A DNA stretch of 64,000 bases from an uncultured Clostridia bacterium (GTDB taxonomy: Bacteria; Bacillota; Clostridia; TANB77; CAG-508), in assembly GCA_934130975.1 (NCBI GenBank), contig CAKOYU010000007.1:1435-65434 (forward strand), written 5' to 3'. The notes beneath the pieces were generated by a model. The model had not been told where the DNA came from and searched no databases. It worked only from the letters and a program-made list of their open reading frames with translations. Each line of letters begins with the position of its first letter. The first letter of the stretch is position 1. Positions 16,082-62,705 of this stretch are shown piece after piece. Both the position numbers and the translations under genes were made by a program.

Positions 16082-16205
16082 AATATATTGTTTTTTATAC
16101 CTTGCTGTCGCAATCTTCATATTAAATTTTAGTATGTAGATTGCTCCATATCGCACTCGCATATGCTCGTTTAATCGCTTACGCGGTATTGCAAAACAAT
16201 ATATT
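16082..16205 (+). repeat. Copy A of a ~124-bp structured dispersed repeat with 13-bp terminal inverted repeats, AATATATTGTTTT...AAAACAATATATT.
   Basis: Near-identical to 29391-29518 and 31768-31891 in the same orientation, and to 62582-62705 in the reverse orientation. The conserved internal core is ATACCTTGsTGTCGCAATCT...AGATTGCTCCATATCGCATTCGC...GCTTACGCGGTAT. Confidence 0.85.
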
Positions 16206-16277
16206 ATAAATTTTAAAAATATGTTTAATGCTTTTCATAATTATTCTAAAAGTATTAAAATAGCATTTATACAGTAT

Positions 16278-17693
16278 TTAAATTATATCTCTTTTATTAA
16301 AACTATCGTACATAGTCACAAACATAAGAATTGCACATACACCTAGCACAGCTATAGAAAATCCTAAAGACGTTGTCGTTGTATTTTCTAAACCTGTTGA
16401 TAGCATACTCTTAAAATTTGGGAAAATTTTATCTGCAATATTCAAATTATTAAATGGTATTATCTTTATCCAATCTTTCTTTATATAAGAATTTATTATT
16501 ATCATAGCTATACTATTTCCCATATATGTAGCAATGCTCAAGCCTAATGATAAAGACGTATTTCTAGTTATAACAGAAAGCATTAATGCAAATATTGCAA
16601 ATATTATTACTGGAATTAGTTTTGCAAAATAATATTCTATTATAAATAATGTATTTCCTATTTTCTCTACATTTCCATTTTTAACAAAAATATATTCATA
16701 TCCTTCTGTATCAAAAAATATATTTGCACAGATTATACTTAGTATTGACATTATTAATGTTATTACTACTAAATAAAATATTATTGATAGTATTTTGGCA
16801 GTTAATATTTTCCATCTTTTATTTGGTGTTAATGCCCAAAATTTTATTGTTCCTGTAGAAACTTCTGATGATATTGCGCCTCCTGCTACAATCATTGCAA
16901 ATATAGCAATTAATGTTATTACAAAACTTGAAGTTAACGATTCAAACATCATTCTATAATTTGTTGTTGTTGAATAGTCTTCATTCACTATATTATTTTC
17001 AATTTTGTATATATTTATTTTTATATCATCTTCATATTCTTTTCTCTGTTCTGCAGTTAGAACTCTATTACTTTGATAGTCAATTCCTGTTCTTATACTT
17101 TTTTGTTCATTTTTAATTTTATACAAATATCCTTCTTTTGAATCTCTTATAACCTCTTCATTTCCTACATTTCCTATTTGATATTTATAGCGTAAATCTA
17201 AAATTTGAATATTATCATCATATTCTTGCTGTGTTATTTCTTTTTGATTTAACTTCTGTTTTTCACTTTCTTTTTCATAATTTATATAACCTTCAAAATT
17301 ATTATCTAATACTATATTTAGTAATTTTTCATCCATGTTTTCTTCTAAACTATTTAATACTGTATTTTTCCAATTAACAGAATATACACTAATATTATTT
17401 TGTAATCTAACTTCAGCAATTTTTATTTTATTTTGAATGTCATTTTTTTCACTTTGCAGTAAATCCGGTTCTTTTAATTGTTCCTTATATGAATTTATAT
17501 CTTCTTCTACTCCTTCTTTCCAAGTGCTTGCATATTGAATTACTGAGTCACTATTTTCATCCATATGTTGTAAGACTTTTGTCAATCCTAATCCAGCAAC
17601 AAGTGCTAATATAATAAGAATTATTGCTAATTTAGTTGAAAACTTTTTCCACGTTTTTATGTTTTCATCTATAAATAATTTAAATATTTTCAT
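16278..17693 (-). CDS. ABC-2-type transporter permease with a large N-terminal extracytoplasmic/coiled-coil region.
   Basis: C-terminal multi-TM region, and it overlaps the upstream ABC ATPase. The likely start is MKIFKLF. Confidence 0.55.
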   Translation of the reverse strand: MKIFKLFIDENIKTWKKFSTKLAIILIILALVAGLGLTKVLQHMDENSDSVIQYASTWKEGVEEDINSYKEQLKEPDLLQSEKNDIQNKIKIAEVRLQNNISVYSVNWKNTVLNSLEENMDEKLLNIVLDNNFEGYINYEKESEKQKLNQKEITQQEYDDNIQILDLRYKYQIGNVGNEEVIRDSKEGYLYKIKNEQKSIRTGIDYQSNRVLTAEQRKEYEDDIKINIYKIENNIVNEDYSTTTNYRMMFESLTSSFVITLIAIFAMIVAGGAISSEVSTGTIKFWALTPNKRWKILTAKILSIIFYLVVITLIMSILSIICANIFFDTEGYEYIFVKNGNVEKIGNTLFIIEYYFAKLIPVIIFAIFALMLSVITRNTSLSLGLSIATYMGNSIAMIIINSYIKKDWIKIIPFNNLNIADKIFPNFKSMLSTGLENTTTTSLGFSIAVLGVCAILMFVTMYDSFNKRDII

Positions 17694-17694
17694 G

Positions 17695-18609
17695 TTACTT
17701 TCCTCCTTTTGTTGCATCAAAGAATATATCTTCTAAAGAATGCTCTTTTGGTATTACTGCCTTTATTTCTACATCTGCAACTGCTAATTCTTTTATTACT
17801 TGTGGCAATTTATTTGCTGGAAGTGCAATTGTTATATTTTTATTATTTATTTTTGTATCTATTTGAAATTTATCTTTAATAATGTTTTGTGCCTTTTCTA
17901 AATAATTTACTTTGATTTCTACTGTTTCTATAACTTCTTCATCATTGTCTGCATTTGTAATATTTTCAGTTTTAACTATTTTTCCATTATCAAGTACAGC
18001 TACTTTGTCACACATTAACTGCATTTCTGATAATATATGTGATGACACAAATACAGCTACACCTTCTTTATGTGAAATTTCTTTTAAAATATCTCTTAAT
18101 TTTTTTATTCCTGCAGGATCTAATCCATTTGTTGGTTCATCTAAAATCAAAACTTTTGGTTTATGTAATAGTGTCAAAGCAAGACCTAATCTTTGTTTCA
18201 TTCCTAATGAATATTTTCCTACTTTATCTTTTTCTCTTCCTTTTAGTTCTACTAATTCTAAAACTTCTTCAATTCTTTTTTCATCTATATTTCTAATTCT
18301 TGCATGCAATCTTAAGTTATCAATTCCTGACATATATTTGTATAAATCTGGATTTTCTACTATCGCTCCTATACATTCCATTGCTTTTTCAAATTCTTTA
18401 GTTGTGTCATATCCATTTACTTTTATTTCGCCAGAATCACTGCTTATCAATTTTAAAATCATTTTTATTGTAGTTGTTTTTCCTGAACCATTTGGTCCTA
18501 AAAATCCATAAATTTCTCCCTCTTGAACTTCTAAATTTAAATTATCAATAATTTTTCTTTTTCCAAAAGATTTACTTACATTTTTTAATTCTAATACTGT
18601 TTTCCCCAT
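17695..18609 (-). CDS. ABC transporter ATP-binding protein.
   Basis: Walker A GPNGSGKTT, signature LSLGMKQRL, Walker B ILDEP. Confidence 0.85.
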   Translation of the reverse strand: MGKTVLELKNVSKSFGKRKIIDNLNLEVQEGEIYGFLGPNGSGKTTTIKMILKLISSDSGEIKVNGYDTTKEFEKAMECIGAIVENPDLYKYMSGIDNLRLHARIRNIDEKRIEEVLELVELKGREKDKVGKYSLGMKQRLGLALTLLHKPKVLILDEPTNGLDPAGIKKLRDILKEISHKEGVAVFVSSHILSEMQLMCDKVAVLDNGKIVKTENITNADNDEEVIETVEIKVNYLEKAQNIIKDKFQIDTKINNKNITIALPANKLPQVIKELAVADVEIKAVIPKEHSLEDIFFDATKGGK

Positions 18610-60744: not shown

Positions 60745-61251
60745 TTATTTACTTCCTTTGTCTATATTTTTATGATATTTTTTCTTTATAGCATTTTCTA
60801 ATGGTCTTTTAACCATTGTTATCCAAATATCTTTTTCTGCAATTGGCTCTACTAATATAGTAAACATTTTGCATCTGTTTCCTCCTACTATATCAGTAAA
60901 TATTTGATCACCTACTACTGCTATATTTTGCGATGACTCTTTTAATTTTTCTTGTACTTTTTTAAAACCTGATTTTAATGGTTTTTTTGCAAAGTACATA
61001 TATTCTATTCCTAATTTTTCTGCTACTGTTTTTACTTTTTCTTTTTTATTTGTATTTGATAATATGTATAATTTTATATTATTATTCTTTAATTCTTTTG
61101 CCCATTTTATTGTTTCTTCTGGTAAATTTTTGTCATAGTCTATTAGTGTGTTGTCTACATCTAATATTAATGCATTTATTTTGTTGTTTTGTAAGAAATT
61201 TGTTGTTATTTCTCTTACATTGTTTAAATGTGCATCTGGATATAATATCAT
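60745..61251 (-). CDS. yqeG: HAD-IIIA family phosphatase YqeG-like.
   Basis: LILDVDNTL (DxD) and GDQIFTD. Confidence 0.75.
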   Translation of the reverse strand: MILYPDAHLNNVREITTNFLQNNKINALILDVDNTLIDYDKNLPEETIKWAKELKNNNIKLYILSNTNKKEKVKTVAEKLGIEYMYFAKKPLKSGFKKVQEKLKESSQNIAVVGDQIFTDIVGGNRCKMFTILVEPIAEKDIWITMVKRPLENAIKKKYHKNIDKGSK

Positions 61252-61412
61252 TTAAATCCTCCATTTCTAGTCACAAAACTTCTGCTTATATATTAACAAT
61301 CTATGCCAAATTTGTCAATAGTATGTAATACCATTTTTTAATATATCTCTATATAAATATATTGTTTAAAAGATACCAGAATTATAATCTTTCTGGTATC
61401 TTTTTGTTCTTC

Positions 61413-62279
61413 TTATTTTTCTAATGTTTCTATTTCCTCTTCACTTAATTCTGTTATTTCTGCTATTTGTTTTTTTGGCATTTTTTGTTCTTTTAATTTC
61501 TTTGCAATTTCTATTTGTTTTTCCTTTTTCCCCTGCTCTCTTCCTTCTTCTTTGCCTTCTTCTCTAGCACACTGAAGCGCTGATTGTTCCTCAAACTTGG
61601 CCATCTGCTTAAGCTCTGCTAATCTTTTAACCTCTTCATCTCCTGTTAATACTTCATAATTTTCTATTGCCTTTTTTATCTTTTCATTTTTCTCACTTGC
61701 CATCTCTAACAAATCCCCTCTTTCCATATCTATAAAACTTAACCAATGATTTATTATTTGAGTCATATCTGGATTTTCTTTTCTAAACTTACTTAGTTCT
61801 ATGTAATAATACTTCACATCATTATTTAATTCATATTCTCGATGTTTCTCTGCTACTCTCACTGTTTCTGTAACATATTCTGGTAAATCTATAAATGAAT
61901 AATCCAATATTGCTATTATAACTATTGTTTTTAATTTTATAAACTCTTCTCCTGCTCCTAATTGTTCCGTTATCTTTTTGCTCGCATAAAATGTTGTTCT
62001 TTTTTCTATATTATGATTATCTCTTAATTGTATTTCAATATTGATAAACTCTCCATTTTCTAGCTCTACTCCTAAATCTAGTATCCCAAACTTCTCATTT
62101 TTAGTAAATTGATCTAACCTAACATCATGTAGAACTTTCTTTATTTTTATTTTTTCTCCTAATACTGATTCTAAAAATTCTTTTAAAAATTCCTCATTTT
62201 CTTTTCTTGTAAAAAATGCTTTAAACATTATATCACTTTTCATCTTTAGTTCTGGATTTATTTTTAAATTTAAATTCAT
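61413..62279 (-). CDS. Rpn/YhgA-like PD-(D/E)XK recombination-promoting nuclease (putative transposase family).
   Basis: N-terminal MFKAFF..., with the DLGVELENGEFINIEIQ core. 288 aa. Confidence 0.65.
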   Translation of the reverse strand: MNLNLKINPELKMKSDIMFKAFFTRKENEEFLKEFLESVLGEKIKIKKVLHDVRLDQFTKNEKFGILDLGVELENGEFINIEIQLRDNHNIEKRTTFYASKKITEQLGAGEEFIKLKTIVIIAILDYSFIDLPEYVTETVRVAEKHREYELNNDVKYYYIELSKFRKENPDMTQIINHWLSFIDMERGDLLEMASEKNEKIKKAIENYEVLTGDEEVKRLAELKQMAKFEEQSALQCAREEGKEEGREQGKKEKQIEIAKKLKEQKMPKKQIAEITELSEEEIETLEK

Positions 62280-62581
62280 CCTATTTCTCCTTCCATTATA
62301 ACGTTTTTTGCTTATATTAGCAATATTTTTTTATTCTATTTTTATAAAAAATTCGTTTAATAAAAGTGCATAGGCATCACTCTCCGTCCTGTATGATATT
62401 TTTTAATACTGATTTATTTCTTTGAATAAAACTTTTGAAAAAAATCAAGAATTTAAAATTTGTTTTGCCTTTCCTAAGTCGTATTTGTACTTCAAGTTTT
62501 AGTACATAAATAATATAACACATCCGCCTACATTTAGCAAGAGTTTTTTGCACTTCAATATATAGATTTTAGAAAATTAAT

Positions 62582-62705
62582 AATATATTGTTTGAAATAC
62601 CGCGTAAGCGATCAAATGAGCAAAGCGAATGCGATATGGAGCAATCTACATACTAGTATTTTTAATCTGTAGATTGCGACACCAAGGTATACAAAACAAT
62701 ATATT
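62582..62705 (-). repeat. Copy D of the ~124-bp structured repeat, in reverse orientation.
   Basis: Its reverse complement aligns to copies A-C. Confidence 0.85.

What the first reader, a model, noticed from the sequence alone, without database searches (positions are those of the whole stretch)
16082..62705. Family of ~124-bp highly structured intergenic repeats (4 copies) with 13-bp terminal inverted repeats, each nested in a copy-specific extended palindrome
Copies sit at 16082-16205, 29391-29518, 31768-31891 and 62582-62705 (reverse orientation). They are more than 90% identical end to end, with termini AATATATTGTTTT/AAAACAATATATT and conserved internal helices such as GCAATCT...AGATTGC. 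Beyond the termini, each copy is flanked by its own AT-rich inverted repeat (AGAGATTAAT|...|ATTAATCTCT, AGAACTTAAT|...|ATTAAGTTTCT, AAATTTAT|...|ATAAATTT, GAAAATTAAT|...|ATcAATTTTC). A classical MITE would have direct target-site duplications, not these. The pattern fits either insertion into the centre of pre-existing palindromes (hairpin/terminator targeting, as some IS200/IS605-type and REP-associated elements do), or selection for a long closing stem of an RNA. All copies are intergenic between co-directional genes, and element orientation does not track gene orientation.
Basis: seen in the sequence. Interest (0 to 1): 0.75.

Follow-up and report, generated by a model that had tools for sequence, protein, structure and literature searches.

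The report
Foldback MITE family with flippable core
The four repeats are the inner parts of a roughly 210-bp hairpin-shaped miniature transposon that has spread to dozens of intergenic sites in a small group of uncultured, AT-rich gut Clostridia; it is a new example of a known kind of selfish DNA, notable because its centre has flipped repeatedly during evolution.

Summary
In detail: there are four copies at the stated coordinates, 88-92% identical, each closed by a long AT-rich stem. The 124-bp unit, however, is only the centre of a larger element.

- **True element.** It is about 195-215 bp long. It ends in outer terminal inverted repeats (GTTACAATTCACAG / CTGTGAATTGTAAC) and is flanked by 8-bp direct target-site duplications.
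- **Mobility.** The whole unit, arms included, is absent from the orthologous proS-asp23 spacer of related genomes. That empty site holds no split palindrome.
- **The "copy-specific" palindromes.** They are the less conserved arms of the element. The two arms co-vary through many compensatory changes, with no G:T versus A:C strand bias. This points to a DNA-level process rather than an RNA stem.
- **Inversion.** The asymmetric core, or the whole unit, is inverted between orthologous loci of genomes that are 93-98% identical. Breakpoints lie in either the inner or the outer repeat.
- **Not a fast switch.** About seven same-strain assemblies per copy, from several independent samples, show one fixed orientation at c2, c3 and c4.
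- **Database searches.** Rfam, phage and plasmid searches found nothing.

Verdict: a new MITE family, functionally closest to the Neisseria Correia elements. The transposase that moves it was not found. The unusually strong conservation of the core is unexplained.

The parts
16035..16247 (+). Copy c1, full unit (~213 bp). The outer TIRs are degenerate: left ATTTCAATTCACAA, right TTCATAATTATTC.
   Evidence: same sequence and orientation in orthologs L004 and L086
29363..29563 (+). Copy c2, full unit (~201 bp; the A arm is shortened). The inner part is 29391-29518. It lies between the proS stop codon (29566) and the asp23 promoter (29322-29294, minus strand).
   Evidence: The whole unit is absent in L097/L098. 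The core is inverted in ortholog L066.
29412..29496 (+). Asymmetric, non-palindromic core of c2 (~85 nt). It holds the hairpin GCAATCT..AGATTGC and the near-invariant stretch GATTGCTCCATATCGCA. This is the segment that is inverted relative to L066.
31734..31928 (+). Copy c3, full unit (~195 bp). The inner part is 31768-31891 and the right outer TIR is AATTGTAAC at 31920-31928. It sits between an intrinsic terminator (31987-31953, minus strand) and the scpB promoter (31690-31662, minus strand).
31758..31901 (+). Inner long inverted repeat of c3 (AGAGATTAATAATATATTGTTTT / AAAACAATATATTATTAATCTCT) enclosing the core.
62557..62749 (-). Copy c4 in reverse orientation. The inner part is 62582-62705 and the intact outer TIR GTTACAATTCATAG starts at 62749. 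The other arm is cut short by a ~1.2-kb cassette that carries an Rpn-like gene.
   Evidence: the arm is intact in variant strain L200
50241..50283 (+). Probable remnant of a fifth copy: a solo outer TIR, GTTACAATTCATAG, followed by ..GTTGTAAT, with no core.

Best explanation

**Anatomy.**
- The unit is about 195-215 bp in typical copies; one copy with an enlarged apical hairpin is 243 bp.
- From the outside in, it has 14-bp outer TIRs (GTTACAATTCACAG), two somewhat different AT-rich arms (types A and B), and a long inner inverted repeat of about 22-30 bp.
- At the centre is an 85-nt asymmetric, GC-richer core with its own hairpin.

**Shown.**
- The element inserts into AT-rich intergenic DNA and makes 8-bp target-site duplications.
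- It reached dozens of copies per genome in a narrow clade of 28%-GC gut Clostridia.
- It decays by internal deletion.

**Inferred.** A transposase encoded elsewhere moves it. That transposase was not found.

**Why the palindromes look copy-specific, and why the centre flips.** The element is a nested palindrome, so its two sides recombine with each other. I infer intramolecular recombination or replication template switching between the inverted repeats. This has two consequences.
- It converts one arm to the sequence of the other. The arms of each copy therefore stay complementary while drifting away from other copies.
- It occasionally inverts whatever lies between the crossover points. That is either the core alone (inner repeat) or the whole unit (outer repeat or flank repeat).

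These inversions are sporadic evolutionary events, not a fast programmed switch.
For: **Family size and host range.**
- A truncated genome scan gave at least 70 full copies: at least 30 loci in MAG CAKPHD, 21 in CAKPDZ and 10 in CAKPLQ.
- Only 2 of 80 proS loci from relatives at 66-90% amino-acid identity carry the element.

**Unit boundaries.**
- Similarity between copies, and left-right symmetry, run out to GTTACAATTCACAG. Units with both TIRs intact are 204-216 bp; L142 is 243 bp.
- The outer TIR motif is nearly always next to a core: 29 hits beside a core against 1 intergenic solo hit.

**Presence and absence.** L097 and L098 keep proS-asp23 synteny but lack the whole unit.

**Target-site duplication.** Among 13 independent loci, 5 have 8-bp direct repeats matching at 7/8 or better and 10 at 6/8 or better. 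Mismatched control pairings reach 7/8 in 1.9% of cases. Examples are TAATATTT, AAAAATTT and ACAAATAA/ACAAATTA.

**No coding capacity.** All 69 copies examined are intergenic and none lies inside an ORF.

**Decay.** Deletion remnants are seen in L085 and L045.

**Arm co-evolution.** There are 95 compensatory double changes. One stem pair alone occurs as AU 48, GC 13, UA 6 and CG 1. G:T and A:C mismatches number 25 and 28.

**Inversion.**
- The core alone is inverted in c2 versus L066, with collinear flanks 89-94% identical.
- The whole unit is inverted in L008 versus L032, with breakpoints in a flank repeat.
- Four of about 13 orthologous loci differ in orientation.
- L090/L013 need two nested inversions.
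- Across all copies, the arrangements (A arm, core, B arm) and (B arm, core, A arm) both occur: 13 and 6 fully typed copies. (B,B) never occurs.

**Not a fast switch.** c2, c3 and c4 are identical in sequence and orientation in about seven same-strain contigs each, drawn from several independent samples.

**Precedent.** Correia MITEs have TIRs plus a conserved core and are reported to undergo inversion (review PMC10969869).
Against: - No autonomous element or transposase with matching TIRs was found in about 0.6 Mb of fetched loci, so mobilisation in trans is inferred only.
- The core is markedly better conserved than the arms. Between orthologs it is 94.9% identical against 83.9% for the arms, and most core columns are 90-99% conserved between paralogs. 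A purely selfish, neutrally decaying MITE does not predict this.
- The TSD could not be read at the only clean empty site, because the genomes compared are too diverged.
- A few loci have perfect locus-specific inverted repeats outside the TIRs. The model explains them only by an added assumption: inverted duplication of one flank.
- Consensus assemblies cannot exclude low-level inversion within populations.
Confidence: 0.75

Rival explanations
1. The copies are a genome-wide family of programmed invertons. A dedicated site-specific recombinase flips the core between the inner inverted repeats. The core carries an outward promoter or an orientation-dependent terminator, so many genes phase-vary together.
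For: - The core is bounded by long inverted repeats and occurs in both orientations, including at orthologous loci.
- The core is better conserved than the arms.
- A weak promoter-like match, GCGACA-18-TATATT, points out of the core on its minus strand.
- 64 of 69 copies have at least one gene start next to them.
Against: - About seven same-strain assemblies per copy show one fixed orientation for c2, c3 and c4.
- Inversion breakpoints fall in different repeats: inner in c2/L066, outer flank in L008/L032. A site-specific enzyme should use a single site.
- Core orientation is random relative to the downstream gene: 20 versus 18 in co-directional contexts.
- c3 lies between a terminator and the next gene's own promoter, and c2 lies upstream of a complete promoter.
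- The promoter scan found fewer sites than shuffled controls: 13 against 17.8.
- No recombinase was seen among the genes next to the window's copies.
Confidence: 0.08
2. The core plus closing stem is a structured non-coding RNA or cis-regulatory RNA. Examples would be an RNase III-processed hairpin, an mRNA stabiliser or a terminator. The copy-specific stems would then be kept by selection on RNA folding.
For: - Folds are very stable, with z-scores of -6.8 to -8.9.
- The closing stem shows many compensatory pairs.
- The core is GC-rich and conserved in a 28%-GC genome.
- Correia and ERIC elements act at the RNA level in other bacteria.
Against: - Both strands fold equally well.
- There is no G:U over A:C excess (25 vs 28).
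- Helices inside the core are invariant, so they offer no covariation support.
- The core flips relative to flanks and genes, so any external transcript would read either strand.
- Rfam gives no match even at E = 10.
- c3 lies downstream of a terminator.
Confidence: 0.07
3. A 124-bp element inserts into the centre of pre-existing palindromes (hairpin or terminator targeting, of the IS200/IS605, REP-associated or attC-like type) and therefore makes no target-site duplication.
For: - Each inner unit is flanked by an inverted repeat that differs between copies.
- A few loci carry locus-specific inverted repeats even outside the outer TIR.
Against: - The flanking palindromes share a family consensus and co-occur with the core.
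- No arm-only 'empty palindromes' exist.
- The empty site lacks the arms and any palindrome.
- 8-bp direct repeats flank the true ends.
Confidence: 0.03

Closest known systems
Correia repeat-enclosed elements (CREE) of Neisseria
   Same: - A MITE of about 100-200 bp with terminal inverted repeats enclosing a conserved characteristic core.
- On the order of 100 or more copies per genome, mostly intergenic and near gene starts.
- Folds into a long hairpin.
- Inversion of the element has been reported.

(Source for all points: PMC10969869 and PMC5039591.)
   Different: - No sequence similarity. The Correia TIR is TATAGTGGATTAA...
- Correia elements duplicate a TA dinucleotide (my own knowledge), whereas this family makes 8-bp duplications.
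- This element has two nested sets of inverted repeats, and its host is a Gram-positive-type gut Clostridia lineage.
- Promoter, IHF-binding and RNase III functions are demonstrated for Correia elements and untested here.
ERIC / IRU and YPAL palindromic repeats of enterobacteria
   Same: Imperfect palindromes of about 127-170 bp in intergenic regions, found in either orientation, with highly variable copy number between related taxa.
   Different: - No sequence similarity.
- ERIC elements lie mostly within transcribed regions.
- This family has clear outer TIRs with 8-bp duplications and an asymmetric core.
Invertons (invertible promoter or terminator switches, such as fimS, the C. difficile cwpV and flgB switches, and Bacteroides Mpi-dependent promoters)
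   Same: A short segment (about 85-150 bp) bounded by inverted repeats of about 20-30 bp, found in both orientations.
   Different: - Invertons are usually single-copy or few-copy, each with a dedicated or shared site-specific recombinase, and they switch fast enough to be mixed within a population (my own knowledge).
- Here there are dozens of near-identical copies, the orientation is fixed within a strain, and breakpoints fall in different repeats.
Arm-to-arm gene conversion in large palindromes, and quasi-palindrome correction by template switching
   Same: Concerted evolution of the two arms of an inverted repeat, plus inversion of the spacer. This is how I explain the compensatory changes and the flips. 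The comparison rests on my own knowledge of the literature on Y-chromosome palindromes, chloroplast inverted repeats and E. coli quasi-palindrome mutagenesis.
   Different: The known cases are a general mutational process, not an element family. Here the process acts on a 200-bp mobile element.

Membership tests
MITE (non-autonomous class II element) | Terminal inverted repeats at the true ends | tested here: met
   GTTACAATTCACAG / CTGTGAATTGTAAC, within 3 mismatches on both sides, in 19 copies; perfect in L142 and L087
MITE (non-autonomous class II element) | Direct target-site duplication flanking the TIRs | tested here: met
   8-bp direct repeats: 5 of 13 independent loci at 7/8 or better and 10 of 13 at 6/8 or better. 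Control pairings reach 7/8 in 1.9% of cases.
MITE (non-autonomous class II element) | Small size, no coding capacity, many dispersed copies | tested here: met
   Units of 193-216 bp (243 bp in L142). No copy lies inside an ORF. The frame is not conserved, because of indels in the loop and between subfamilies. At least 70 copies.
MITE (non-autonomous class II element) | Filled versus empty orthologous sites | tested here: met
   The c2 site is filled in the window, L066 and L099, and empty in L097 and L098. The genomes compared are diverged (89-90% ProRS identity).
MITE (non-autonomous class II element) | A cognate autonomous insertion sequence with the same TIRs that encodes the transposase | tested here: inconclusive
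   None found in about 0.6 Mb of fetched loci or in the phage and plasmid collections.
Correia / CREE family | Correia 26-bp TIR sequence | tested here: not met
   The TIR and core sequences here are unrelated to TATAGTGGATTAA...
Inverton (programmed DNA inversion switch) | Both orientations coexist within a strain or population | tested here: not met
   c2, c3 and c4 have one orientation in about seven same-strain contigs each, from several independent samples. Only consensus assemblies were compared, so minority reads were not examined.
Inverton (programmed DNA inversion switch) | A single defined crossover site recognised by a site-specific recombinase | tested here: not met
   Breakpoints lie in the inner inverted repeat (c2/L066) and in an outer flank repeat (L008/L032). 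No recombinase is present among the ten neighbouring genes scanned.
Rfam RNA families (including ribozymes and IS-associated RNAs) | Covariance-model match | tested here: not met
   No hit at gathering threshold. At E up to 10, the only hit is a spurious S774 match at E = 5.6.
IS200/IS605-derived PATE or REP/RAYT elements | Subterminal hairpins without TIRs or TSDs; short GC-rich REP palindromes | tested here: not met
   This element has TIRs and 8-bp TSDs and AT-rich arms of more than 20 bp.

The most novel reading that the evidence does not exclude
The 85-nt core is not passive cargo. It would be a functional module, either an orientation-dependent promoter or terminator or a protein- or RNA-binding platform, that the host or the element keeps under purifying selection. 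Recombination between the nested repeats would then flip it at a low rate, giving this clade dozens of slow, heritable expression switches carried on a transposon. This would be a MITE-borne inverton network.
Probability: 0.1. Interest if true: 0.65.

Novelty: new member of a known kind. Interest (0 to 1): 0.3.

Why it matters
- **Annotation.** The result adds a well-delimited MITE family (ends, target-site duplication, consensus and host range) for a poorly known, uncultured, low-GC gut Clostridia clade. This helps with genome annotation, explains contig breaks, and warns against reading these loci as invertons or small-RNA genes.
- **Mechanism.** The family is a clean natural example of how a nested palindrome evolves: the arms co-vary, and the centre or the whole unit flips between closely related genomes.
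- **Open question.** If the strong conservation of the core reflects function, the family could link transposition with heritable switching of neighbouring genes, as proposed for the Correia elements of Neisseria.

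Tried and rejected
- **Rfam.** Gathering threshold on the whole window and E up to 10 on c1 and c2 gave nothing relevant.
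- **Phage and plasmid BLAST** of the c2 unit gave no match.
- **IMG/VR scan** with the core 17-mer gave two chance hits in contigs of 50-61% GC.
- **Rpn-like PDDEXK_2 gene next to c4 as the mobiliser.** Only one other fragment of such a gene occurs in all the loci, and it is not adjacent to an element. I dropped it as a general partner.
- **Autonomous partner.** A search for outer-TIR pairs 0.4-4 kb apart found nothing convincing.
- **Older 'arm-only' palindromes as targets for the 124-bp core.** None exist.
- **Locus-specific flank repeats as a second repeat family.** They occur only at their own locus.
- **Empty site for c3.** Synteny upstream of scpB breaks in the relatives.
- **Candidate empty sites L085 and L045.** They proved to be deletion remnants.
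- **A 32-aa ORF across the core's minus strand.** Rejected because indels break the reading frame among copies.
- **T/C...A/G covariation inside the core.** It is confounded with two linked subfamilies.
- **Siddique et al. 2011.** The paper could not be retrieved.

Full report
**1. The observation**

- A 15-nt core motif hits exactly four times, against 0.44 expected.
- Pairwise identity of the 124-bp units is 87.6-92.2%.
- Each copy folds into a closing stem of 21-23 bp around an internal hairpin. The z-scores are -6.8 to -8.9, equally good on both strands.
- All four copies lie between co-directional minus-strand genes:
  - c1: glycosyltransferase / ABC-2 permease
  - c2: Asp23 / ProRS
  - c3: ScpB / radical SAM
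  - c4: Rpn-like / SLT
- Rfam finds only a tRNA in the window, and nothing on the repeats even at E = 10.

**2. The family is large and taxonomically narrow**

About 70 of them are full copies.
- Almost all are in a few 'uncultured Clostridia bacterium' gut MAGs. CAKPHD has at least 30 loci, CAKPDZ 21 and CAKPLQ 10.
- A few copies are in a 1.55-Mb complete chromosome (OV788638), a rabbit-gut MAG and other MAGs.
- The window has 28% GC. It is 92-98% identical to CAKPDZ and CAKPHD contigs.
- Among 80 proS loci from relatives at 66-90% ProRS identity, only two carry the element.
- Phage, plasmid and IMG/VR searches found nothing real.

**3. The real unit is about 195-215 bp, not 124 bp**

I aligned about 70 copies with their flanks.
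- The 'copy-specific' palindromes turn out to be variants of a family-wide arm, TTTAGAAA(A)TTAAT.
- Similarity and left-right symmetry continue about 45 nt further out, to GTTACAATTCACAG on one side and CTGTGAATTGTAAC on the other.
- Units with both ends intact measure 204-216 bp. A more distant species (L142) has a 243-bp copy with perfect 14-bp outer TIRs and an enlarged apical hairpin.
- The two arms are not identical. There is an 'A' type (..TTTATAATAAAATATATTTAGAAATTAAT) and a 'B' type (..TTAAATTATATAGATTTTAGAAAATTAAT).
- The outer TIR motif is almost never found without a core nearby: 29 associated hits against one intergenic solo hit, at window 50241. Arms and core therefore travel together.

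**4. It is mobile and makes ordinary target-site duplications**

- In L097 and L098 the proS-asp23 synteny is kept, but the whole unit, arms included, is missing. The empty spacer reads ..CAATATTAATGT|GAATCTTTTG.. and holds no palindrome.
- I took the 8 nt immediately outside GTTAC...GTAAC in 13 independent loci.
  - Five match as direct repeats at 7/8 or better: TAATATTT, AAAAATTT, ATCTTGTA/ATCTTATA, ACAAATAA/ACAAATTA and CTTAATAT/CTTAAAAT.
  - Ten match at 6/8 or better.
  - Mismatched control pairings reach 7/8 in only 1.9% of cases.
- Copies decay by internal deletion, as in L085 and L045.
- One copy marks a rearrangement breakpoint exactly at its end (L142 versus L141/L126).

These are the defining features of a MITE.

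**5. The arms co-evolve at the DNA level**

- Within the inner repeat I counted 95 positions where both arms had changed to the same new pair.
- RNAalifold finds both-side changes in 19 of 34 predicted pairs. One pair occurs as AU 48, GC 13, UA 6 and CG 1.
- Mismatches that would be G:U wobbles on one strand (25) are no more common than those that would be wobbles on the other strand (28).
- Helices inside the core never vary, so they say nothing for or against an RNA structure.
- An apparent T/C...A/G covariation in the core is confounded with two linked subfamilies.

This pattern fits arm-to-arm conversion, or selection for a DNA hairpin or cruciform. It does not fit selection on an RNA read from one strand.

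**6. The centre flips**

- At the c2 locus, the flanks of the window and of L066 are collinear, but the core between the inner repeats is inverted.
- At the L008/L032 locus the whole unit, arms included, is inverted. The breakpoints lie in a locus-specific 24-nt inverted repeat outside the TIRs.
- Four of about 13 orthologous loci differ in orientation between genomes whose flanks are 93-98% identical.
- L090/L013 require two nested inversions.
- Across all copies the core occurs in both orientations within the A/B frame: 13 (A,B) against 6 (B,A) among fully typed copies. (B,B) never occurs.
- In contrast, about seven same-strain contigs per copy, from several independent samples, carry c2, c3 and c4 with identical sequence and the same orientation.
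- Core orientation is also random with respect to the downstream gene (20 versus 18).

Breakpoints in different repeats, stability within a strain, and no orientation preference all argue for sporadic recombination or template switching between the nested repeats. They argue against a dedicated invertase and fast phase variation. Consensus assemblies cannot exclude minority orientations.

**7. Context and function**

- All 69 copies examined are intergenic: 38 between co-directional genes, 15 between divergent genes and 5 between convergent genes. The remaining 11 have a called gene on only one side.
- c3 sits between an intrinsic terminator and the scpB promoter. c2 sits between the proS stop codon and a complete extended -10 promoter for asp23. 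Both look like 'safe' spacers rather than regulatory positions.
- The one feature a selfish-DNA model does not predict is the conservation of the core. It is 94.9% identical between orthologs, against 83.9% for the arms. A 20-nt stretch is invariant in 75 sequences.
- Possible reasons are a cis requirement for transposition, gene conversion between copies, or a host-level function. I could not separate them.

**8. Comparison with known elements**

The closest analogues are the Correia (CREE) elements of Neisseria. They have TIRs plus a conserved core, occur in 100 or more copies, lie mostly between genes, form a hairpin, and are reported to invert (PMC10969869; PMC5039591).
- This family is not a member of that family. 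The sequences are unrelated.
- The duplication here is 8 bp, whereas Correia elements duplicate TA (my own knowledge).
- The host clade is different.
- The tests for invertons, for Rfam families and for IS200/REP-type elements also fail; see the membership table.

**9. Verdict**

This is a new MITE family of foldback type in an uncultured gut Clostridia clade.
- Still open are the mobilising transposase, the cause of core conservation, and the origin of the locus-specific inverted repeats outside the TIRs at a few loci (L025/L043, L008/L032, L029, L054).

Noticed in passing
window 61413-62279 (-), cassette ~61340-62556: A 288-aa PD-(D/E)XK 'transposase' of the Rpn/PDDEXK_2 family (Pfam E = 2e-40), with its own promoter and terminator. 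The cassette replaces the outer part of one arm of copy c4. It is absent from the orthologous locus L081, and the arm is intact in variant strain L200. The cassette's 3' flank contains AAACAATATATT, the same 12-mer as the element's inner repeat.
   Followed up: partly
window 50241-50283 (+): A solo outer TIR, GTTACAATTCATAG, followed by ..GTTGTAAT, with no core, about 100 nt upstream of gene 50342-51337. It is probably the remnant of a fifth copy.
   Followed up: partly
L142:602-845 versus L141 and L126: The sequence to the right of the element is 100% identical in the three metagenome contigs. The sequence to its left is unrelated: a RarA-like gene end in L141/L126. A genome rearrangement breakpoint therefore coincides exactly with the element's terminus.
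   Followed up: partly
L054 (~3084 and ~3338), L025/L043, L008/L032, L029: Perfect locus-specific inverted repeats lie outside the element's true ends: 27/27 nt in L054, 14/14 in L025, about 24 nt in L008/L032. They are found nowhere else in the fetched DNA. They suggest either inverted duplication of one flank or insertion into a palindrome.
   Followed up: partly
L085:5878-5961 and L045:1400-1524: Deletion remnants that keep one arm plus the first 10-30 nt of the core, at sites where related genomes carry a full copy.
   Followed up: yes
alignment A4 (75 copies), core columns ~100-122: Two linked core subfamilies (GCATTCGC-T..CATTTGG and GCACTCGCAT..CGTTTAA) coexist within the same genomes. 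In the window, c1 belongs to the second and c2-c4 to the first.
   Followed up: no
L183 and L185 (contig ends): Two metagenome contigs end at or next to the inner inverted repeats of c3: L183 at the junction between the repeat and the core, L185 within the other repeat. Copies of this family therefore fragment short-read assemblies.
   Followed up: no
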